DNA of 64,000 bases, from IMG/VR virus record IMGVR_UViG_3300043497_000005. One strand, given 5' to 3'. Below the pieces are notes generated by a model. It did no database searches, had not been told where the DNA came from, and worked only from the letters and a program-made list of their open reading frames with translations. Made by a program: the position numbers and the translations under genes. This document shows, one piece after another, positions 2,698 through 32,132 of the stretch (position 1 is its first letter; the number at the start of each line of letters is the position of its first letter). This stretch comes from a virus.

Positions 2698-4526
2698 CAG
2701 GCAGCCGCCTTCTCTGGTGGTTTCGGTTTGACGCGGCCAACATAGGCCTTGAACCGCGCGTAGCTCTCCGGGTCCTTCAGGTTTAGCACGCCCGACCAGC
2801 CACTGTTCAGCAACAGCTTCTTGCCGAGCTTGCTATCGGCGATCTTCCACAGGCTCTTTGGATCGTTGCTGCGCACCAGATCGTAAAGCTCTGCGATCTC
2901 CGGCGATTGCTTCTCCTCCTCGGTCAACTCCATCTCCGGCTCTTCCTCGGGCTCGATCTCGATCTGGTCCTGACCGTAATTGCCAGCGATCTGCAGCTTT
3001 TCGGTGTTGTCCTTCTGATCCCAGTATTCTTCCTGATACTCCTCGACCTGCTCGGTGATGTAATCCGGCGGGTCCATGTCATCGACGGCCTTCTCGGCCT
3101 TTGAGTTGAACTCGGTCACCAACGCGTCGATGATCTCCTTGCGCATGTCCTCATCGAGCATCTTGTTGTAGATCGGCGGCTCGATCACCGGCAGGTCCAA
3201 CTGGTTCGGGTTCTTGTTCTTGCCGCTCTCGTCAAGCTGCTTGTCGTCCCACGTGAATTCCGGATCGTCCGCACCGTCCTCATAGCGCGATTGATATTCA
3301 TCGATCTGCAGCGCGGCCAGTATCTCCTCATCGTTGAACGGATAATCCGGTTGCTCGGCTTCCTTGCGCTCTTGGCGTAGCCGCTTCACTTCATCGAGCG
3401 CCCACGTGTTGTCGCCATCGTTGAACTTGACCTGCTCGTCGCGCTTGGCCTGTTCGAGCCCCTGCCCGCTCTCGCGCCAGTTCTCGATCTCGCTCTGCAC
3501 GAACTCATCGCGGCTATCGCGCATCCAGCGGCGCTTGGTCTCTTCCTGCTGATCGGTCGACAGGATTTCCCATTCATCTGCGGTGATGGTCTCGCCACTA
3601 CCAGAACGACGGCCACCGCCGCCTTCGATGCTGTCGAGCTTCTCTTCCAGTTCACCCGACAGCGATGACCACGCCGATGCTGTCGGCACGTAGCCATACT
3701 TGGCCCACGCGTAGCCGCCGACATCGATGTTCGCTGACACCTTCACAGTGGTGATGCCCATCGCCTCATAGGCCTCGACGTTGCCGCCGAGGATGCGCTT
3801 GCCGGTGTCGTCGCCGGTCGCGGCACGCTCCAGCTTGAAGTAGGCGCTGTAAGCCTCGTGCTTGTCGGGCTTGATCTCACGGGTGAACTCGCCGATGCGA
3901 TCACCATCCGCATCGCGGATGTCCCCAGTGACGCTGAACTCGCTGCCGCTCAACCTGATGCGCATATCGACGCGGTCCTGCAAGCCACCCGTGAAGGTTT
4001 TCTTGAACTCCTCCGGGTCCATGCCGATCTTCTCGTTCCACGCCTGCAGGAATTTCTCCTCGCTGCCATCCTCGGCGCGGTAGCGAATCTTGGCCTTCTC
4101 GAAATCGTCCTTGGTGGCAGGCTTTTTCGCCTTGCCGGTCTTCGGCTTGGCGGCTTCCTCGGCGGCTACCTTCTTTTCCTCTTCGGCCTGCGCGCTCATC
4201 GCGGCGGCCTCGGCCTGCCTCTGCGCTTCGCGCTTGCGTTCGGCGCGCTCTTTCAGCTTCGGCGATAGTGCAGCACCCGAGCGCTCGGTCTTCTCCTTGC
4301 GCGCCGCCATCGGTCCGACACCAGAACCGAACTGGCCTGCGGTCGAGCCCGCCGATACCCGCTCGTGCTTCTCCTCGTTCCACGCCCGCACCGCGTCGTG
4401 CACGTCCTCGCCGCTCCAGTGCGCACGCAGCCGAACACGCATCTCCTCGAAGTCCTCGTTCTCCCAGTGGGCCGGGGGATCGGGATCATCCTGCCAAGGT
4501 GCGAACTGCGGCGTGCCCCTCATCAC
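2697..4526 (-). CDS. Head-associated multidomain protein with GNAT-like segment
   Basis: WNEEKHER...GQF motif; segment YFKL...TGKRIL...VKVSANIDVGGYAWAKYGY resembles a GNAT fold; acidic C-half. Confidence 0.6.
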   Translation of the reverse strand: MMRGTPQFAPWQDDPDPPAHWENEDFEEMRVRLRAHWSGEDVHDAVRAWNEEKHERVSAGSTAGQFGSGVGPMAARKEKTERSGAALSPKLKERAERKREAQRQAEAAAMSAQAEEEKKVAAEEAAKPKTGKAKKPATKDDFEKAKIRYRAEDGSEEKFLQAWNEKIGMDPEEFKKTFTGGLQDRVDMRIRLSGSEFSVTGDIRDADGDRIGEFTREIKPDKHEAYSAYFKLERAATGDDTGKRILGGNVEAYEAMGITTVKVSANIDVGGYAWAKYGYVPTASAWSSLSGELEEKLDSIEGGGGRRSGSGETITADEWEILSTDQQEETKRRWMRDSRDEFVQSEIENWRESGQGLEQAKRDEQVKFNDGDNTWALDEVKRLRQERKEAEQPDYPFNDEEILAALQIDEYQSRYEDGADDPEFTWDDKQLDESGKNKNPNQLDLPVIEPPIYNKMLDEDMRKEIIDALVTEFNSKAEKAVDDMDPPDYITEQVEEYQEEYWDQKDNTEKLQIAGNYGQDQIEIEPEEEPEMELTEEEKQSPEIAELYDLVRSNDPKSLWKIADSKLGKKLLLNSGWSGVLNLKDPESYARFKAYVGRVKPKPPEKAAA

Positions 4527-7500
4527 GTGCCCTTCTTCTTCAGAGCGCTGAGCGATTTCGCATAATCAGTGTCGCGCTCCTTGCCGCGCACGCCCATGCC
4601 CTCCCACAGGATTTTCTCCGGCCACCACCATGTCGCCTGCGCACCCGCTGGCGTTAGCTCGATGCCGTGACGCTCGCGCATCTTGTCAATCGCCCGGTTG
4701 AACACGCTTGTGATCCACTTGCGCTGGTTGCCGTTCTTCGGTTGCTCCACCATCATGCCCTTGGCGGTCAGTGTAAGCCGCTCCGATGCCAGCACCAGTT
4801 CGCTCTTCTCGTATTTCTCCTTGGTGCCAGCCTTCTTCTGCGCCTTCTGATGCGCGATGAAGTCGCGCTCGTGCTGGGTGTAGATTTCCTCGGCCCGCTC
4901 GATCACGCCCTTCCTCGTGCGCGGCACCGGCAGGCCCGCATGATCCAGTGCACCCTCAACACGCTCGATCTGCTTGGTCATGTCCTCGACGTCGGTCGAG
5001 CCGATCCCGGTGTTGGTGATGCGGCCCCATGCGCGCATGAACCACAGGTCCATCGTGATCGGCGAGAAATTGCCGTTCAGGTTCTGATAGAAGCCCTGCC
5101 CGATCTTCGGACCCAGCATCGCCGAGCCGTACACGATATCGTCCTTCAGGGTCGCACCGGGCTCGACGCCGGTCTTCAATGCGAGATCGCGCGCGGTCAT
5201 CTTGGTGTCGAAGAACTCACGCAGCTTGGCAATGCCGCCTTCCTCGATGGCTTCGTTGACCTTGCGCAGGTTCTCGACAATGGACGCCTTCTTGACCTCG
5301 ATGTCGGTGGGAAAGCGGCCATGCTTCAAGAAATGCCGATAGGCCTGATCCGCCAGCGCCACGTTGCGATCAACCGTCTCGCCCTGCGATGTCACCGCCA
5401 GCGCCACCGTGTAGATGAACTTCTGGTCCTTGTCCTTCGAGATGCCGGGATAGATATCCTCGGCGATCTCCATCGCCTCTTTCACCGTGTCGTCGTACCA
5501 GTGCTCGCCCGATGCGCCGCCGATCAGGCCCTCGCGCAATTCCATTGCGATCACGTTGGCCAGATACTCATCGGTCTCCTCGGTGTGGTTCTCCTCGGTG
5601 ATCGAGCTTAGCCCGAGGTCGCGCTTCAGTATCTTGCCAGCGCGCTCGTTCAACACCTTGGCAGCCTCGGTCACCAGCACTGAGTTGGGCTTGATGTCCG
5701 GGTACTCCGACAGGATCGCCGTCGGCGTTAGCTCGAACCCTTCTTGCTCATAAGGTGGGAGCCAGTGATTGCGTACGTCTTGCCAGATGGCTTCAGCATC
5801 TTGAACCGGGGATCGCTCAATGACTTTCTGGTATATGCCTCGCGCGCGGTCTCGCTGTTCGCGGTCCGATCCTTTGCCGTCGTATCCGATGAACTCGGCT
5901 TTGCCGAACTGGTAATAGACCGGGTTGTCCTTGCCATAGGCCTGCGCTCCCTTGTCGACCTTGTCTAGCTCGTCGCCGTCGGTGTCGACCACATAGACCG
6001 TCGCACCGCCCTGCTTCGGCACAATGGTATGGTTTGAGATGCCAGCCTTCAACAGCTTCTTGTGGATGCTCTCCAGCGTGCCCTTGGCCTCGAACTGGAT
6101 CAAGGCATCGGTCCCCTTGTCCTGTTGCTCGAACACCAGCACCGCCTTCTGGTCTGCGATGTAGCCCTTCATCACGGTGGCCAGCACGATGCGGTCCCAG
6201 TTGGACTCCGCGCGCGACATCAGCGAGTTTTCTGCACCATCGGTCCATGCCCCGATGATGTTGACCTCCTTGGCATCCCGCACGCCGACCTTGTCGTTGA
6301 TGTCGAGCGAGCACGCGCGCAGCCTTGTTTGCTGCCGTGAATTCAACTCCCTGATCGCGCCCTTGAAATCCAGCCCGCTCTTGACGCTCGGCGATACAAA
6401 GCCGGTGGTCTTCTCCATGTTCTCCGGCATCGAAACGAACTGCCCGCCACCCTGTCCGCCGGGATCGCGCGCGTGCTTCGTCGGGTCCCACTGGATCAGG
6501 CGGTCAGCTAACTTGCTCGCCAAACGGTCCAACAAGGCCGCGTCGAAAGGGGCTCGGCTGTCTTTCGCTACCTCCCCTTCCATGCCGCGCGCCTTCGGTG
6601 GCGCTAGCTGCTTCATCGGCGCAGGTCCCGCAAGCTCAGCCTCAAGCGCTTCCTCGTCCAGCGCTTCCTGTGCAGCGATGGCTTCCTCGATGCCAGCCTC
6701 GATGCCGGGATAGGTGCCGTCCTCGATCAACTGGTTGACGCGGCCCTTCACCAGCGCCTCGAACGGCACCAGACCAGTGGAGGCATCAACCGCTGCAGTG
6801 TCGGCCTTCACCTTGGCGATGTCGGCCTTGTCCTTGGCGCTCATCTGCCACAACGGATTCCAGTTGTAGAAAATATCCTCATCGAACGAGCCAAGCGCCG
6901 ACATCTGGATCGCAATGTCGAGCTTCTCCAGCGTCGGCGTCAGCCGCAATTCCTGATCGCTCTTGATGCGGTCGTAGTAATTGGTCAGATCGCTCTCGCC
7001 TGTCGAGTTCAGACCTGCCGGTGCCTGTCCAAGGAAACGCGTCGCCGGGATGTCAGCCGCACCCGCAGCAATGTGCATGTACATCTGCATGATCTCGGGC
7101 ATGCCGGTGAAGTCGACGCCGATGCGCTGCCACTCCTCCTCGCCATCGAGCACCACCGCGTTGATCACGCTCTTGGCCACGTTGGCTTCCGAGAAGCGCT
7201 TGATCAGCCGGTTGGTGCCGTCGGTGGTCGAGAAGATTTCGGTCAGCCCCGGTATCTTGACCACGTCGAACTTGGCTTCACTGATCATCGCAGCGATGCT
7301 CTGTTGCACGGTGCCTGCGGCTGCAACCGCGTCGTGCACCATCTGCAGCACCGGATCGCCCCAACCGAAATTCGCCATCGGGTCCGGTGGATCGAGACCG
7401 ATCAGGCGGATCATGCGGCTCGGATGAATCTTCACGTTGCCGAGCTTTCCGCTCTCGTCGTTCAACGTGTAGAACTCGGGCTGGCCGTAGTACGGCGACG

Positions 7501-7939
7501 TCACGTCCTTGATCAGGTCCTGTATCGCCAGTTGATGCGGCGCGAGGATGTGCAGGAACTTCAACCCGTCCTTCTTGATGGTCGTCGGGTCCAACTCCTT
7601 GGCCATGTCGCCTTCCACACCCATCAGGATGCAGCAACCGCCATAGAGCCGCGCCTTCACCAAGGCTTCCTGCAATTTCAACTGCACGCGCAGGCGATCC
7701 TCGGTCTCCTCCAGTAGCTCGATCTGATCGGCCTCTGCCTGCCATGCGCGCCACTCACGCGTCGCATCCTGCGCAGGAATCGAGATCGCCTTGCGTGCGA
7801 TCCAGTCCGATTGAAACGACGACTCCAATTGATCACGCGACCACAGCGTCTTGGTGTAGTGGTGGCCAGTCATCTTGTCGCGACCTTGGACACCAAGGCC
7901 GCTCAAAAAATTCGTGAAAGTATCAAAAACATAACCCAC
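4523..7939 (-). CDS. Portal protein (DUF1073/HI1409-like) fused to a long C-terminal extension with a glycosylase-like domain
   Basis: N-terminal WIARKAISIPAQDATREW...AADIPATRFLGQAPAGLNSTGESDLTNYYD is DUF1073-type portal; start moved to GTG 7939 because an AAGGA RBS precedes it (ORF track starts at 8002). Confidence 0.8.
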   Translation of the reverse strand: MGYVFDTFTNFLSGLGVQGRDKMTGHHYTKTLWSRDQLESSFQSDWIARKAISIPAQDATREWRAWQAEADQIELLEETEDRLRVQLKLQEALVKARLYGGCCILMGVEGDMAKELDPTTIKKDGLKFLHILAPHQLAIQDLIKDVTSPYYGQPEFYTLNDESGKLGNVKIHPSRMIRLIGLDPPDPMANFGWGDPVLQMVHDAVAAAGTVQQSIAAMISEAKFDVVKIPGLTEIFSTTDGTNRLIKRFSEANVAKSVINAVVLDGEEEWQRIGVDFTGMPEIMQMYMHIAAGAADIPATRFLGQAPAGLNSTGESDLTNYYDRIKSDQELRLTPTLEKLDIAIQMSALGSFDEDIFYNWNPLWQMSAKDKADIAKVKADTAAVDASTGLVPFEALVKGRVNQLIEDGTYPGIEAGIEEAIAAQEALDEEALEAELAGPAPMKQLAPPKARGMEGEVAKDSRAPFDAALLDRLASKLADRLIQWDPTKHARDPGGQGGGQFVSMPENMEKTTGFVSPSVKSGLDFKGAIRELNSRQQTRLRACSLDINDKVGVRDAKEVNIIGAWTDGAENSLMSRAESNWDRIVLATVMKGYIADQKAVLVFEQQDKGTDALIQFEAKGTLESIHKKLLKAGISNHTIVPKQGGATVYVVDTDGDELDKVDKGAQAYGKDNPVYYQFGKAEFIGYDGKGSDREQRDRARGIYQKVIERSPVQDAEAIWQDVRNHWLPPYEQEGFELTPTAILSEYPDIKPNSVLVTEAAKVLNERAGKILKRDLGLSSITEENHTEETDEYLANVIAMELREGLIGGASGEHWYDDTVKEAMEIAEDIYPGISKDKDQKFIYTVALAVTSQGETVDRNVALADQAYRHFLKHGRFPTDIEVKKASIVENLRKVNEAIEEGGIAKLREFFDTKMTARDLALKTGVEPGATLKDDIVYGSAMLGPKIGQGFYQNLNGNFSPITMDLWFMRAWGRITNTGIGSTDVEDMTKQIERVEGALDHAGLPVPRTRKGVIERAEEIYTQHERDFIAHQKAQKKAGTKEKYEKSELVLASERLTLTAKGMMVEQPKNGNQRKWITSVFNRAIDKMRERHGIELTPAGAQATWWWPEKILWEGMGVRGKERDTDYAKSLSALKKKGT

Positions 7940-7987
7940 AGGCGCATCCTTTCTGATATCAACCTGTCGCCATTTCAGGATGGCATT

Positions 7988-8060
7988 GGCAAGGTATGGC
8001 ACGGCGCGTTCAGGCAGCGTTAGGCACGGACGGGCACGGTCTGGCTGGCTTGGCTGGCTA
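7988..8060 (+). ncRNA. Orphan GGY-NN pentamer unit (candidate stand-alone guide RNA)
   Basis: GGCAA GGTAT GGCAC GGCGC GTTCA GGCAG CGTTA GGCAC GGACG GGCAC GGTCT GGCTG...; same grammar as the 28-29.5 kb array; intergenic; followed by a hairpin and T-tract. Confidence 0.7.
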
Positions 8061-8062
8061 CG

Positions 8063-8095
8063 AAAGGGGCTCCCTCACGGGGGCCTCTTTCATTT
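8063..8095 (+). terminator. Intrinsic terminator-like hairpin (possibly bidirectional)
   Basis: AAAGGGGCTCCC-TCAC-GGGGGCCTCTTT followed by CATTT. Confidence 0.6.
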
Positions 8096-8200
8096 GGCTG
8101 TCAGCAAATAGAACAGCGACACCAGCACGAACATGCCAGCGAGCCAGTACGAATGATCGAGCATGCCAGCAACGGCGAACGCTGCGGCTACCAGATACAT
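8090..8200 (-). CDS. Small membrane peptide
   Basis: Read by hand: MYLVAAAFAVAGMLDHSYWLAGMFVLVSLFYLLTAK, hydrophobic. Confidence 0.4.
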   Translation of the reverse strand: MYLVAAAFAVAGMLDHSYWLAGMFVLVSLFYLLTAK

Positions 8201-8404
8201 CTAGCGCCTGCTCATTTCGCGCTCGATGTCGGCCAAGATGTCTTCTCGCGGTCGCCTCGGTGGAAAGCCGTGCGATATTTCTTCAACCTCGATGATCAGG
8301 TTGATCAGCCCGATGTGACGGTCCGCCGACATCGTTAGCGCCGCGACGTTCAAGGCCCGCTGCTTCATGACATTGACAGCGTCGGCGATCTCGTCGTCGG
8401 TCAT
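8201..8404 (-). CDS. Hypothetical protein
   Basis: MTDDEIADAV... with GAAGG RBS; overlaps the upstream stop. Confidence 0.55.
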   Translation of the reverse strand: MTDDEIADAVNVMKQRALNVAALTMSADRHIGLINLIIEVEEISHGFPPRRPREDILADIEREMSRR

Positions 8405-25529: not shown

Positions 25530-26065
25530 CATTTCTGCGCAGTGAACAGCGGCGTATGCCGCCACGCCAGTTGCGGGTTGAGCCACGCGCATTGAAAACT
25601 CCACAACGCGGCTGCATCACTCTCGTCGGTGGTGGTCGCGGGCCATCCCATTTGCTGGCAGCGCTCCAGCGTCAGCGGCTTGGCGATCTTCGCTTTCATA
25701 TTCTGGCCGATGAAGTGTGCTCGCACTTGGCTTACTGATGCTTGGCGAAGATCGTAGCGGTCGTAGCACCACTCCTCCAGATGCTCGGCGAGGCCGAACA
25801 GCAACCGCGTGGTGCTAATATTGGTCTTGCCGCCCATGAACGATGGCACCGCCGGGCTCTCGTACACGATCAGGTCAGGGCTCATGCGATGGTGCTTCAC
25901 CATCGCCTCAAGCCACTTCCTGAATTCACGATAGGTCTCGGCGTGCGATGCGCCGCCCTTGCTGAACCGCACGTGCCCACATAGCGGGATCGAGCCGGGC
26001 ACGCCAGCGGCCCAGCCTGTTGTCGTAGCTAAATCGAGCGCGAGCACGCGACCAGTAAAGGTCAC
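25529..26065 (-). CDS. RuvC-like Holliday junction resolvase
   Basis: LALDLATTTGWA, IVYESP, DESDAAA catalytic pattern. Confidence 0.8.
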   Translation of the reverse strand: MTFTGRVLALDLATTTGWAAGVPGSIPLCGHVRFSKGGASHAETYREFRKWLEAMVKHHRMSPDLIVYESPAVPSFMGGKTNISTTRLLFGLAEHLEEWCYDRYDLRQASVSQVRAHFIGQNMKAKIAKPLTLERCQQMGWPATTTDESDAAALWSFQCAWLNPQLAWRHTPLFTAQK

Positions 26066-26606: not shown

Positions 26607-27431
26607 ATGGCTGTGAAGAAAAAAGACGACACCGATCAGGCGATCATGATCAAGAAGATCGAGCCTGACATTGTACGTTGCGCGATCCTCGGTGCTTCGC
26701 CGATGATCATGCATCGGTTCGCGTTCAAGGCGTGGCAAGAATTGCTGTTGCCTGCCGCCAAGAAGAACGCGGCAGCGAAGGCGGAGAATCTAAAGCACGA
26801 TCCGCTCAACGAATTTCGTGAGTGCTGCTACCGCAACCGCTCGGAAGAAGAACCGACGGCGATCCACTATCCGGCTGGCGCGTTCTCGAAGGCACTGGCA
26901 GCGGCAGCGCTCGACCTGCCCGGAGCAACCAAGGCGCAAATCCTGCGGCTTGTCGGCGTCGTCAGCACACAGATCAATATCTATGGCACGCCCACGCTGG
27001 GCATGGATATGGTGCGATCCAGTGACATGGCCAGAACACCGGACGTGCGCACGCGCGCATATCTGCCGGAATGGTGCTGCACGGTGGACATCAGCTACAT
27101 CAAGTCGCTGATCGGGAAAGAGCAGATCATCAACCTGCTTGATGCTGCCGGTCTCATCGTCGGCATCGGCGACTACCGCCCGCAGAAGGGCGGACAGTAC
27201 GGTCGCTTCGAGGTAGTGAGCCCGGACAACAAGGACTTCGTGCGTATCATGAAGCAACAGGCGCGCATAGCGCAGGAAGCTGCGCTGGAGACCCCTACGT
27301 TCTTCAACGAGGATTCCGCTGAGCTATATCAGTGGTTCAATGAGGAGACCGAGCGTCGTGAGAAAACCGTGCCCTCGTCCAAGGGTAACGGCAAACCGAA
27401 GCCGCAGCCGACACAGGTGCCGGTGCAGTAA
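26607..27431 (+). CDS. RAMP/Cas7-like protein (putative guide-RNA-binding effector)
   Basis: N-terminal strand ILGASPMIMH and C-terminal Gly-rich loop GLIVGIGDYRPQKGGQYGRFEV resemble RAMP (Csm3/Cas7) hallmarks; lies upstream of the repeat array. Confidence 0.7.
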   Translation: MAVKKKDDTDQAIMIKKIEPDIVRCAILGASPMIMHRFAFKAWQELLLPAAKKNAAAKAENLKHDPLNEFRECCYRNRSEEEPTAIHYPAGAFSKALAAAALDLPGATKAQILRLVGVVSTQINIYGTPTLGMDMVRSSDMARTPDVRTRAYLPEWCCTVDISYIKSLIGKEQIINLLDAAGLIVGIGDYRPQKGGQYGRFEVVSPDNKDFVRIMKQQARIAQEAALETPTFFNEDSAELYQWFNEETERREKTVPSSKGNGKPKPQPTQVPVQ

Positions 27432-27439
27432 ACGAAAGC

Positions 27440-27474
27440 GGCGGCGATCAATTATGGTCGCCGCCATTTTTTTT
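27440..27474 (+). terminator. Intrinsic terminator between the RAMP-like gene and its partner
   Basis: GGCGGCGATCA-ATTA-TGGTCGCCGCC, then A and T8. Confidence 0.65.
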
Positions 27475-27489
27475 GAAAGGAGCGAGACA

Positions 27490-28044
27490 GTGAGCAGTAG
27501 ATCAGACAAACGCCAAAGAGAACTCGATGCCGCGATCCGCGCATGCGAGGATGAAACAGGCCATGCGATACCGAAGGTGGTGGTGGCGGCAGCGCAGGAC
27601 CCAACGCACCCAAGCTATGAGGTGCTCACCCTCGAATTTAATTGGAACGTTCAAGAGGCTGCACAAGCACACTGGGAAGATCGAGCGCGCGAGCTTATCC
27701 GCGAGGTGCGTGTGATGGTGGTTTACGGTGACGCCAAGATCGCGACGCCGGTTTACGTCAGCGATCCGCGCGTTCCCGAGTCGTCGTTTATCCGCACAGT
27801 AAGAATCGCGCGAAGCGGACCAACCAAAAGGGCGGTGCTGCAGGCGGAGTGCGACCGGATCGCTTCGGCGATCAACCGCGCGATAGGTCTGGCTGTTGTG
27901 TTCGATCTAGAACAGCGTTTCGAAAACGCGCTTGCCGAGATCATGATGGCGGCCAACGAGCTAGGCAGCCGCGACGACGATGGCGACGACGATGACGGTG
28001 GCAGCGCATCACCGCGCGGGCCGGAGCCATCACCGGCACCGTGA
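27490..28044 (+). CDS. Partner protein of the RAMP-like gene
   Basis: GTG start with AAGGAG RBS; PKVVVAAAQDPTHP...FNWN...AAQAHW..RARELI; ends 8 nt before the array. Confidence 0.7.
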   Translation: MSSRSDKRQRELDAAIRACEDETGHAIPKVVVAAAQDPTHPSYEVLTLEFNWNVQEAAQAHWEDRARELIREVRVMVVYGDAKIATPVYVSDPRVPESSFIRTVRIARSGPTKRAVLQAECDRIASAINRAIGLAVVFDLEQRFENALAEIMMAANELGSRDDDGDDDDGGSASPRGPEPSPAP

Positions 28045-28052
28045 GCTTGCTT

Positions 28053-29570
28053 GGCATGGCAGGCACGGTGAGGTGAGGTACGTTGAGGCGCGGCTGTGCG
28101 CGGTCTGGTTGGGCTCGGTTAGGTCAGGCAGGCAAGGCCCGGCGAGTTGTTGTGAGTTATGATATGGCAAGTCGCGGCGTGGCAGGCGCGGTTAGGCCGG
28201 GCGAGGTTAGGTGCGTCGCGGCAGGGTATGGCGGGCCGAGGCCGGGCTGGGCAGGACTGGTGAGGTCGGGCCGGGATTGGTCAGGCAGGGCGCGGCGAGG
28301 CGCGGCGTGTTGTGTCCGATTAGGTTTGGGCAAGGCAGGCATGGTGTGGCGCGTTTGGCGATGGCGAGTTGAGGCTAGTCCGGTTGAGACGAGGCATGTC
28401 GCGGCGAGGCAGGCGAGGTAGTCTGGCCACGTCTAGCTCGGTCACGGCGAGGCTTGGCAGGCGCGGTGTGTCAGGTCAGGTCATGTCATGGCCGGGTAGG
28501 TCAAGGCGCGGCCCGGTAAGTCATGGCGTGGCAGGCAAGGCATGGTGTGATCGTGTGGGGTGAGATCAGGTGCGACGAGGCAAGGCAGGCGCGGTTAGGC
28601 GGCGAGGGGCACGGCTGGGCACGGCGAGGCAAGGTATGGCAGGCATGGCTCGGTTTCGGCGGCGCTCGGTGTTGCACGGTCAGGCCGGGCGTGGCGTGGC
28701 ATGGCAGGCACGTTATGGCTGGGCAAGGTAGGTCATTGGTGTGGCAGGCGACGTCTGGCGCGGGCGGCTAGTTGTGGTCGGGTCAGGCAAGGCATGGCAG
28801 GCGAGGTACGGCAAGGTGTGTTCGTGCGAGGCAAGGTCGGGCAGGCTGGGCAAGGCGCGTCGGCGCTTGGTGAGGCAGTGTGCGGCGTGGCTGGGCAAGG
28901 TTAGGCAGGCGAGGTGCGGCGAGGCCGGATATGGCACGGTCCGGCTTGGTGGGGTTTGGCGCGGCAGGCGCGGCAAGGCGAGCCCGGTCAGGCCGGGGTC
29001 GGCTCTGGCGAGGCACGGCATGGCGAGGCAGGCTGGGCGGGCTTCGGTTTGGCAAGGCATGGCTGGTTGCGGTTAGCTCTGTTGCGGCGTGACGTGGCAG
29101 GCTGGGCTTGGCTTGACGCGGTCGGGTTCGTTGCGGTGGGGCAGGTTGTGGTCAGGCGTGGCAGGCGAGGCGTGTTTTGGTCCGGCAGGATAAGGCTAGG
29201 TCTGGCAAGGCAGGCTGGGCTTGGTATGGCGCAGCGAGGCGGGGCACGATGGGGCAAGGCACGGCAGGCGCGGACTGGCTCAGTATGGCTAGGCGCGGCT
29301 GGGTAAGGCGCAGCGAGGCAGGCAAGTTAGGGTCTGTCGCGGCGAGGCAAGGACGGCCCGGGCGTGGCGAGGATTGGCACGGCAGGCAAGGTTGGGCGTG
29401 GCGAGGTCTGGCATGTAGCGGCTAGGTGAGCCACGGCAGGCTAGGCACGCACAGGTGACGTGAGGCATGGCGAGACGAGGATGGGTTGGGTGACGCGAGG
29501 CTAGGTCAGGCAGGCTGGGCTCGGTAGGGTCGTGCATGTTCGGGTTGGTCACGTCGCGGAGTGGCAGGCA
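28053..29570 (+). ncRNA. GGY-NN pentamer array, 25 units delimited by GGCA(GG); candidate guide-RNA array
   Basis: Strict 5-nt periodicity; 26 GGCAGG delimiters; 21 of 25 units have length 5n+4; terminator follows. Confidence 0.85.
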
Positions 29571-29575
29571 AAAGG

Positions 29576-29604
29576 AAACCGGGAGAATTACTCTCCCGGT
29601 TTTT
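29576..29604 (+). terminator. Terminator closing the array
   Basis: AAACCGGGAGA-ATTAC-TCTCCCGGTTTTT; overlaps the end of the convergent ORF. Confidence 0.75.
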
Positions 29605-29773
29605 CCTTGCTGGTTAGTTCGTGGTATCGAATGCACCACGTGTCGATATCGCTCTGCGTGTAGCCGCGCGAGTTCATCTCTTTCCAGAATTCCTCTCGCG
29701 TCATCCGTTTGTCGCCGTACTGACCGAGCAGGTACGCCAGCGATTCGTATTTGGTGAGCGGCTTGGTCTTCAT
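29588..29773 (-). CDS. Hypothetical protein (gapped near-match to array unit 24)
   Basis: MKTKPLTKYESLAY...YTQSDIDTWCIRYH...; ATGA overlap. Confidence 0.65.
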   Translation of the reverse strand: MKTKPLTKYESLAYLLGQYGDKRMTREEFWKEMNSRGYTQSDIDTWCIRYHELTSKEKPGE

Positions 29774-31899: not shown

Positions 31900-32132
31900 G
31901 GCTTGCGCTTTCGCTTGCTTGAGAAGATGTCCGGGCGAACCTGCTCCGGTGTCATCTCGATTAGCGGGGCGATCTCCATCACGTGGTGCGCTGGCACACG
32001 ATTCCACGCCGCCACGTTCTGGTGCGTTACGCCGAGGTGTCGTGCGATCACCGCAGCGAACCCCGGCTTGGAGAAGATCAGCCGCATCACGTGGTCGCGC
32101 TCCTTGTCACGCCTCGGGCTGGACCGCTTCAT
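31896..32132 (-). CDS. Second Cro/YdaS-like HTH regulator
   Basis: IARHLGVTHQNVAAWNRVPAHHV...VRPDIF. Confidence 0.75.
   Translation of the reverse strand: MKRSSPRRDKERDHVMRLIFSKPGFAAVIARHLGVTHQNVAAWNRVPAHHVMEIAPLIEMTPEQVRPDIFSSKRKRKP

What the first reader, a model, noticed from the sequence alone, without database searches (positions are those of the whole stretch)
7841..8095. Orphan single guide 20 kb from the array, matching the 5' end of the neighbouring portal gene
At 7988-8047 (+), intergenic and antisense to the late operon, there are 12 in-phase beads with NN = AA AT AC GC CA AG TA AC CG AC CT TG, then GGCT-type steps and a terminator hairpin (8063-8095). The portal at 7841-7876 (minus strand) reads AAG ATG ACT GGC CAC CAC TAC ACC AAG ACG CTG TGG (KMTGHHYTKTLW). 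Nine of 12 match with the same wobble skip (rough uniform estimate about 4e-4 over the window). This is an independent replicate of the code outside the array. It suggests stand-alone guides are planted beside an essential gene, either against a relative's portal (K-M-T-A-H-S/R-Y-T-R-T-L-W) or as a weak self-regulator of late genes.
Basis: partly seen in the sequence, partly recalled or inferred. Interest (0 to 1): 0.92.

Follow-up and report, generated by a model that had tools for sequence, protein, structure and literature searches.

The report
Solo VIPR guide RNA targeting portal
This short run of five-base repeats is a stand-alone guide-RNA gene of the phage's own VIPR system, a CRISPR-like, RNA-guided DNA-silencing system first described in 2026 preprints. 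Its code spells a stretch of the portal gene of sister phages better than the phage's own portal, so it is probably a weapon against close relatives; the kind of element is already known.

Summary
At 7988-8047 (+) there are 12 in-phase pentamers, 9 of them canonical GGY-NN. This is the only such run outside the 1.5-kb array in 64 kb on either strand. GGCT steps and a 13-bp hairpin follow it.

Read by the one-base-skip rule, the NN dinucleotides match portal codons 22-33, with the skipped base on the wobble position:
- Own portal: 9/12 dinucleotides, 19/24 bases. The next best site in the window has 6/12. The window-wide null gives about 0.003-0.005.
- Sister phages L001 and L039: 10/12 dinucleotides, 21/24 bases (0.875).

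The "code" is not new. It is the published VIPR system (bioRxiv 10.64898/2026.04.26.720920), and solo vrRNAs are described in 10.64898/2026.10.15.759431. This scan has also reported orphan VIPR guides in other genomes.

The window holds the other VIPR parts:
- A Vipr protein with a RAMP fold and a profile hit to the solved SUSP1 Vipr.
- A vap gene.
- A staggered vrRNA array.

Sister phages cross-target each other at 0.83-0.88 while their self matches stay at 0.71-0.79.

The orphan is a roughly 145-nt insertion that sister phages lack. Best reading: a solo vrRNA aimed at sister portal alleles, with the phage's own allele just under the published 0.8 cut-off. Expression and binding are untested. 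It is a new member of a known kind.

The parts
7988..8047 (+). Guide tract of the solo vrRNA: 12 pentamer units, 9 of them canonical GGY. NN = AA AT AC GC CA AG TA AC CG AC CT TG.
8043..8060 (+). GGCT-stepped units (GGCT GGCTT GGCT GGCT). They resemble the 4-nt GGCA steps that separate guides in the staggered array. The first step overlaps unit 12.
   Evidence: the boundary comparison is inference
8062..8091 (+). 13-bp hairpin (GAAAGGGGCTCCC / TCAC / GGGGGCCTCTTTC) followed by ATTT. Probable terminator or 3' end of the vrRNA. Its 3' arm overlaps the stop codon of the 36-aa gene on the other strand.
7940..7987 (+). 48-nt leader of the inserted cassette. Its end, ATGGCA-TT-GGCAAGGT, resembles the array start ATGGCAGGCACGGT. 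On the minus strand it carries the portal RBS AAAGGA (7952-7947). No sigma-70 consensus promoter was found.
7940..8084 (.). A roughly 145-nt insertion relative to sister phages L001 and L039, where 13 nt separate the 36-aa gene's stop from the portal ATG.
7841..7876 (-). Near-cognate self site: portal codons 22-33 (KMTGHHYTKTLW). 19/24 informative bases (0.79), with the skipped base on the wobble position. The vrRNA would pair with the + strand, which is the template strand.
4523..7939 (-). Portal gene: 1138 aa, Phage_portal_3 domain plus a long C-terminal extension, GTG start at 7939.
8090..8200 (-). Gene for a 36-aa hydrophobic protein upstream of the portal, conserved in sister phages.
26607..27431 (+). 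vipr: 274-aa RAMP-fold protein, the probable partner of the solo guide.
27490..28044 (+). vap candidate, 184 aa. The model is confident (pLDDT 92), but no known fold and no nuclease or helicase signature was found.
28045..29570 (+). Staggered vrRNA array: about 25 guides of 7-16 GGY-NN units separated by 4-nt GGCA steps. A bidirectional terminator at 29575-29605 closes it.

Best explanation
The stretch 7940-8095 (+) is a stand-alone (solo) vrRNA gene of the phage's own VIPR system.

Inferred mechanism:
1. The gene is transcribed on the + strand, antisense to the late operon, and ends at the hairpin.
2. Copies of Vipr (gene at 26607-27431) hold the GGY triplets and expose the 12 NN dinucleotides.
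3. The complex pairs non-contiguously, skipping one base per codon, with double-stranded DNA at codons 22-33 of the portal gene of closely related competitor phages (allele KMTAHRYTRQLW, 21/24).
4. Binding blocks transcription of the competitor's portal and downstream head genes during co-infection or superinfection.

The phage's own portal allele (KMTGHHYTKTLW) differs at 3 guide dinucleotides (5 bases). It scores 0.79, just under the published 0.8 cut-off, and so probably escapes.

The cassette sits 112 nt from that resistant allele, so guide and immune allele are inherited together.

Shown here: the anatomy, the insertion, the code match, and the presence of Vipr, vap and the array. Inferred: transcription, loading onto Vipr, DNA binding, silencing and self-immunity.
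For: - Repeat anatomy and uniqueness in the window.
- Match under the one-base skip only, in frame with the wobble base skipped. Self scores 19/24 and is an outlier.
- Sister alleles score 21/24 in L001/L024 and L039, from two samples. The closest portal relatives, P0152 and P0153 (88% and 87% identity), carry the same peptide.
- A degenerate target pattern finds only that portal in all of IMG/VR and nothing in 185,579 species genomes.
- The Vipr candidate has a RAMP fold. The Foldseek top 50 hits are nearly all Cas7/Csm3/Cmr4-type proteins (best E 7.6e-5; VIA Z 8.2). Its family profile hits PDB 36pp 'SUSP1 Vipr protein' at E 1.6e-7.
- The published rules fit: 9-16 GGY/NN units, one-nucleotide skip on the wobble base, 0.8 threshold, staggered arrays, internal degeneracy of units, solo vrRNAs, and self scores below non-self scores.
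- The same self-below-sister pattern recurs in this clade. Array unit 1 scores 24/28 on the RuvC-like gene of L037 against 20/28 on self. The last guide of L042 scores 21/24 on this window and 20/24 on L037 against 19/24 on self.
- The cassette is an insertion absent from sister phages.
- It is base-for-base identical in contigs from four independent soil studies.
Against: - There is no RNA evidence. No RNA run was listed.
- No sigma-70-type promoter was found.
- No 23-24/24 target was found in any collection. The best is 21/24, and how many mismatches this VIPR type tolerates is unknown.
- Three of the 12 units lack GGY, and the canonical GGCAGGC boundary carries a TT insert. Decay cannot be excluded.
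- The extra divergence of the self target site from sister phages is only suggestive (4 of 12 residues, top ~10% of windows).
- Very large databases yield chance 22/24 hits once 9 dinucleotides are fixed (L035).
Confidence: 0.68

Rival explanations
1. Self-regulator. The guide binds the phage's own portal 5' region weakly (19/24) and times or damps late-gene expression.
For: The match to self is a window-wide outlier and lies only 112 nt away. In the published assays VIPR silences from either strand.
Against: Sister alleles match better than self. The self score is under the published 0.8 cut-off, and no published self hits passed that cut-off. The self mismatches are spread out, so no more than 3 consecutive units pair perfectly. 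Other guides in this clade show the same pattern of self scoring below sister.
Confidence: 0.12
2. Decayed, non-functional fragment of a vrRNA array that moved here by recombination.
For: Three of 12 GGY triplets are degenerate. The 5' boundary is not canonical. No promoter was predicted. No relative carries the cassette.
Against: Unit conformity (9/12) is at the upper end of the array's own units, and the authors report frequent internal degeneracy of vrRNAs. A hairpin terminator is retained. The guide still gives an in-frame 21/24 match to a real sister allele.
Confidence: 0.13
3. Guide that works with a competitor's Vipr, either as a decoy or as a hijacker, as described for satellite and VIPR-null phage solo vrRNAs.
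For: Solo vrRNAs that redirect a foreign Vipr are published.
Against: This phage encodes its own Vipr and a 25-guide array. The target is a structural gene, not vipr, a vrRNA or a host repeat.
Confidence: 0.05
4. Chance G-rich periodic sequence with a chance match.
For: The base-level window-wide p is only about 0.003-0.005.
Against: It is the only GGY run outside the array. The match is adjacent, in frame, specific to the one-base skip, and better in sister alleles. The cognate system is present in the same genome.
Confidence: 0.02

Closest known systems
Solo (orphan) vrRNAs of VIPR systems on SUSP1-family phages and F5 satellites (bioRxiv 10.64898/2026.10.15.759431)
   Same: A stand-alone GGY/NN guide gene away from vipr. 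Targets are read by the one-base skip, wobble-aligned, and scored on informative positions with a 0.8 cut-off. Self scores are lower than scores on rival phages. Solo guides also occur on VIPR+ phages.
   Different: Here the phage is an uncultured ~87-kb soil phage with a different Vipr clade and a staggered array. The tail is a plain hairpin, not the SUSP1 pseudoknot. The predicted target is the portal gene of sister phages, not vipr, a vrRNA, a satellite or a host repeat. The guide is inserted directly beside the phage's own copy of the target gene.
VIPR systems with staggered vrRNA arrays (bioRxiv 10.64898/2026.04.26.720920, fig. S18)
   Same: The locus order is vipr, vap, then a long array. 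Guides of 9-16 pentamers abut with a one-base overlap (GGCA|GGC steps). Targets are competing phages.
   Different: The orphan is a single guide 20 kb from the array, with GGCT rather than GGCA steps. I could not assign the VIPR type number because the classification tables are not held.
Virus-borne mini-CRISPR arrays and solitary repeat units used in conflicts between related viruses (from my own knowledge, not checked here)
   Same: A minimal guide-only locus on a virus, aimed at conserved genes of close relatives, with self protected by mismatches.
   Different: There are no CRISPR repeats or contiguous spacers. The guide is non-contiguous (2 of every 5 bases) and the effector is a single small RAMP.
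Free-standing homing endonuclease genes of T-even phages that sit next to the gene they cut in relatives (analogy only, from my own knowledge)
   Same: A small insertion between two conserved late genes. It acts on the neighbouring gene of relatives that lack the insertion, while the linked own allele is resistant.
   Different: No nuclease is evident (the Vap fold is unknown). The published VIPR action for systems without nuclease vap genes is silencing, not cleavage. Spread by gene conversion is not shown.

Membership tests
VIPR vrRNA (solo) | Tandem 5-nt units GG[C/T]NN, at least 4 units and typically 9-16, in one register | tested here: met
   12 units in register, 9 canonical. The authors note frequent internal degeneracy.
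VIPR vrRNA (solo) | A cognate Vipr (minimal RAMP) protein is available | tested here: met
   The ORF at 26607-27431 gives an AF2 model with pLDDT 81. Its top structural hits are Cas7/Csm3/Cmr4 RAMPs. The family profile hits PDB 36pp SUSP1 Vipr at E 1.6e-7.
VIPR vrRNA (solo) | NN dinucleotides specify a natural target by the one-nucleotide-skip rule at identity 0.8 or more, usually wobble-aligned in a coding sequence | tested here: met
   21/24 = 0.875 on the portal of L001/L024 and L039, in frame. Self scores 0.79. Skips of 0 and 2 give no outlier, and the only outlier at skip 3 is the guide tract matching itself.
VIPR vrRNA (solo) | Conserved structured 3' tail after the repeats (a pseudoknot in the SUSP1 clade) | tested here: inconclusive
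   GGCT steps and a 13-bp hairpin follow the repeats. No homologous copies exist to test conservation. The tail rules of the staggered-array clade are not described in the text held.
VIPR vrRNA (solo) | Expressed as a small RNA that co-purifies with Vipr | not testable with these tools
   No RNA run was listed. The phage is known only from soil metagenomes.
VIPR vrRNA (solo) | Guide-dependent binding or silencing of double-stranded DNA | not testable with these tools
   Needs a reporter assay or EMSA.
VIPR system (locus) | vipr followed by a vap gene and flanking vrRNA-bearing non-coding DNA | tested here: met
   vipr 26607-27431, vap 27490-28044, array 28045-29570. Sister loci L037 and L042 show the same order.
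CRISPR array or mini-array | Direct repeats of about 25-40 nt separating contiguous spacers, with cas genes | tested here: not met
   Tandem-repeat and direct inspection show only 5-nt units. No cas1/cas2 and no Rfam hit.
TRAP-type protein-binding RNA (triplets with 2-nt spacers) | 11 (G/U)AG triplets in a 5' leader that control an attenuator, with a TRAP protein | tested here: not met
   The triplets are GGY. No Rfam family matched. The partner protein has a RAMP fold.

The most novel reading that the evidence does not exclude
The solo guide and the neighbouring resistant portal allele form a linked 'poison-antidote' cassette.

The guide silences, or with an unknown Vap activity damages, the portal of sister phages that lack the insertion. 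Because it lies 112 nt from the immune allele, recombinants in mixed infections survive only if they inherit both. The cassette would then spread like an RNA-guided analogue of free-standing homing or marker-exclusion elements.

The clade gives some support. The three guides whose self homologue I could identify (the orphan, array unit 24, and the last guide of L042) have that homologue within about 0.1-0.5 kb, and array unit 1 has it within 2.4 kb.
Probability: 0.2. Interest if true: 0.7.

Novelty: new member of a known kind. Interest (0 to 1): 0.45.

Why it matters
It shows that the VIPR code, worked out in Enterobacteria and Pseudomonas phages, also holds in an uncultured ~87-kb soil phage lineage with staggered arrays. 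There, sister phages demonstrably aim guides at each other's genes.

It adds a target class not reported in the two preprints I read: a structural gene (portal) of close relatives.

It also adds a layout not reported there: the guide is inserted directly beside the phage's own, slightly mismatched copy of the target. That layout makes two questions testable with a simple reporter carrying the two natural alleles. How many mismatches does VIPR tolerate? How do phages avoid autoimmunity?

Tried and rejected
- **Other readings of the 5-nt period.** Before finding the papers I considered Rho (rut) sites on the minus strand, two-tetrad G-quadruplexes, TRAP/Hfq-like ring-binding sites, Chi-like clusters, a pentapeptide-coding ORF and quintuplet decoding. 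I dropped all of these once the VIPR papers and the Vipr protein fitted.
- **Rfam and tRNA scans.** Nothing found.
- **Megablast of the portal region against phage records.** No match.
- **Whole-genome search.** No genome is held for this window.
- **Search for a perfect or 22-24/24 portal target.** IMG/VR gave only L001. Species genomes gave none. JGI metagenomes gave only the same contig plus 12 chance hits outside portals, one of them 22/24.
- **Protein searches for alleles closer to KMTAH[RS]YTRTLW.** The best remains KMTAHRYTRQLW.
- **Search for the same cassette or scaffold elsewhere in IMG/VR.** None.
- **Search for solo guides near the portal of 26 related loci.** None.
- **Covariation between guide and portal within populations.** Not possible, because contigs from four studies are identical over the region.
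- **RNA evidence.** No run was listed.
- **Shared promoter motif between the orphan and the vipr or vap upstream regions.** Nothing convincing.
- **Vap function.** The model is confident, but no PDB match was found and the only AFDB matches are uncharacterised proteins.
- **Contig of P0153.** It has a 143-nt gap in the same place, but its DNA could not be fetched.

Full report
**1. The observation**

From 7988 the + strand reads GGCAA GGTAT GGCAC GGCGC GTTCA GGCAG CGTTA GGCAC GGACG GGCAC GGTCT GGCTG. It then continues as GGCT-stepped units to 8060, followed by a 13-bp hairpin (8062-8091, loop TCAC) and ATTT. Nine of the 12 units are canonical GG[C/T].

Four consecutive GGYNN units occur 39 times in the window. 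Of these, 38 lie in the array at 28062-29530 and one lies here; shuffles give 0.28. A caller I wrote, run on both strands and all five registers, finds only 7988-8047 outside the array.

The NN string, read with one skipped base between dinucleotides, matches the minus strand 7876->7841.
- At the dinucleotide level it matches 9/12. The next best of about 128,000 positions is 6/12, and 100 bead-order shuffles reach at most 7.
- At the base level it matches 19/24. Shuffled guides reach 19 in 3 of 1000 trials, and Markov surrogates of the window in 1 of 200.
- Skips of 0 and 2 give no outlier, and the only outlier at skip 3 is the guide tract matching itself.

The match is in frame, with the skipped base on the wobble position, and lies 112 nt from the guide.

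**2. Gene context**

The ORF at 4523-8002 (-) carries Phage_portal_3. Alignment with 14 related loci shows that the true start is GTG at 7939 (M/V-G-Y-V-F-D-T-F-T-N-F-L-S-G-L-G...). The matched peptide KMTGHHYTKTLW is therefore codons 22-33.

In sister phages L001 and L039, 13 nt separate the stop of a conserved 36-aa hydrophobic protein gene from the portal ATG. Here about 145 nt (7940-8084) are inserted there instead. The insertion holds a 48-nt leader, the guide tract and the hairpin, and it supplies a new RBS for the portal. Other relatives carry unrelated insertions at this junction.

No related locus has a GGY run within 6-10 kb of its portal.

The sequence is natural. Many soil metagenome runs from different studies hold it, and contigs from four studies are identical across 7781-8276. 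One co-occurring variant replaces 7848-8216 with 953 other letters. No RNA run was listed.

**3. What the repeats are**

[quoted passage not shown] It describes the following:
- VIPR systems consist of a small ancestral RAMP protein (Vipr), an accessory gene (vap) and vrRNAs made of 9-16 GGY/NN pentamers.
- The NN bases pair with double-stranded DNA while skipping one base per unit, and that base usually falls on the codon wobble position.
- Binding silences transcription.
- Natural targets are competing phages, prophages and satellites.
- Some arrays are 'staggered', with guides overlapping by one base.
- Targets were accepted at an NN match of 80% or more, and no self hit passed that threshold.

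A second preprint (10.64898/2026.10.15.759431) describes solo vrRNAs on satellites and on phages, VIPR+ phages included. Their self-match scores are lower than their scores on rival phages.

**4. The window holds the rest of the system**

- The ORF at 26607-27431 belongs to a large unannotated family (642 hits).
- Its AlphaFold model (pLDDT 81, pTM 0.77) matches almost only Cas7/Csm3/Cmr4/gRAMP chains (Foldseek best E 7.6e-5; VIA-align Z up to 8.2).
- Its family profile hits PDB 36pp 'SUSP1 Vipr protein' at E 1.6e-7.
- A 184-aa vap candidate follows at 27490-28044, after a terminator hairpin. Its model is confident (pLDDT 92), but it has no known fold and no nuclease or helicase signature.
- Then comes the 1.5-kb array, with 4-nt GGCA steps between guides, closed by a bidirectional terminator.
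- Sister loci L037 (Vipr 79% identical) and L042 (83%) have the same layout.

**5. Targets**

The orphan scores 19/24 (0.79) on its own portal. It scores 21/24 (0.875; 10/12 dinucleotides) on the portal of L001/L024 and L039. Those are two independent samples with allele KMTAHRYTRQLW and no insertion. The two closest portal relatives in a 5.8-billion-protein search (88% and 87% identity) carry that same peptide.

A degenerate target pattern hits only this portal in all of IMG/VR and nothing in 185,579 species genomes. No 23-24/24 allele was found.

Relative to the sister allele, the phage's own site has 4 changed residues in 12 (A>G, R>H, R>K, Q>T). That is the densest cluster of differences in the first 100 residues, but only in the top ~10% of windows across the portal domain, so it is suggestive at most.

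**6. The clade behaves as the model predicts**

- Array unit 1 (28062-28131) matches the RuvC-like gene of L037 in frame at 24/28 (0.86), against 20/28 on the window's own copy.
- The last guide of L042 matches this window at 31924 at 21/24 (0.88) and L037 at 20/24 (0.83), against 19/24 on its own copy 0.5 kb away.
- Unit 24 matches the adjacent small gene at 10/14 dinucleotides.

Guides in this lineage are thus aimed at sister alleles of genes the phage itself carries. The self copy sits just under the threshold and is often close by.

**7. Interpretation**

Most likely (0.68): this is a solo vrRNA loaded on the phage's own Vipr that silences the portal and late operon of sister phages. The phage's own allele is protected by five mismatched bases.

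Rivals:
- Weak self-regulation: 0.12.
- A decayed array fragment: 0.13.
- A guide for a foreign Vipr: 0.05.
- Chance: 0.02.

Transcription, loading, binding and mismatch tolerance are all inferred. No sigma-70-type promoter was found, and the host is unknown.

**8. Novelty**

The kind of element is already described, and this scan has already reported orphan VIPR guides in other genomes. This instance adds three things:
- a different Vipr clade in a soil phage;
- a portal target;
- a guide placed next to its immune allele.

I file it as a new member of a known kind.

Noticed in passing
L023 1489-1875 (Mycobacterium phage Donkeykong NC_051648.1, 36870-37256): The annotated CDS gp48 ('hypothetical protein') is a GGCNN pentamer array with GGCA steps, of the same kind as the window's array. 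23 Mycobacterium phage records gave blastn hits to the window's array. These CDS annotations are probably vrRNA arrays.
   Followed up: partly
window 28062-28131 (+) and 25593-25630 (-); L037 5198-5239 (-): Array unit 1 matches the RuvC-like gene of sister phage L037 at 24/28 in frame (TDESDACALWNYQC). It matches the window's own RuvC-like gene at only 20/28.
   Followed up: yes
window 31924-31958 (+); L042 7229-7288: The last guide of sister locus L042 matches this window at 21/24 (null maximum 17) and L037 at 20/24. Its own copy, 0.5 kb from its array, scores 19/24. Sister phages therefore appear to target this phage in return.
   Followed up: partly
window 29439-29508 (+) and 29622-29662 (-): Array unit 24 matches the adjacent small gene (YTQSDIDTWCIRYH) at 10/14 dinucleotides (20/28 bases). 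It is another near-self match lying about 114 nt from its guide.
   Followed up: partly
window 4523-7939 (-): The portal ORF is 1138 aa, with about 700 residues beyond the portal domain. Relatives range from 647 to 1793 aa and carry different C-terminal additions.
   Followed up: no
window 7848-8216: One soil run holds a related contig in which this stretch (portal codons 1-31, the orphan and the 36-aa gene) is replaced by 953 other letters. The junction lies inside the guide's target site.
   Followed up: no
contig of P0153 (JGI sample 3300041967; no DNA served): This closest full-length portal relative (87% identity, allele KMTAHRYTRQLW) has a 143-nt gap between the 36-aa gene and the portal. 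That is the same size as the orphan cassette here. Its content is unknown.
   Followed up: partly
window 27490-28044 (+): The vap candidate belongs to a family with 1044 cluster representatives. It gives a confident model (pLDDT 92) that matches no solved structure and only uncharacterised AlphaFold DB clusters.
   Followed up: yes
window 27439-27476 (+): A GC-rich hairpin with a T8 run lies between vipr and vap. Vap and the array therefore need read-through or their own promoter.
   Followed up: no
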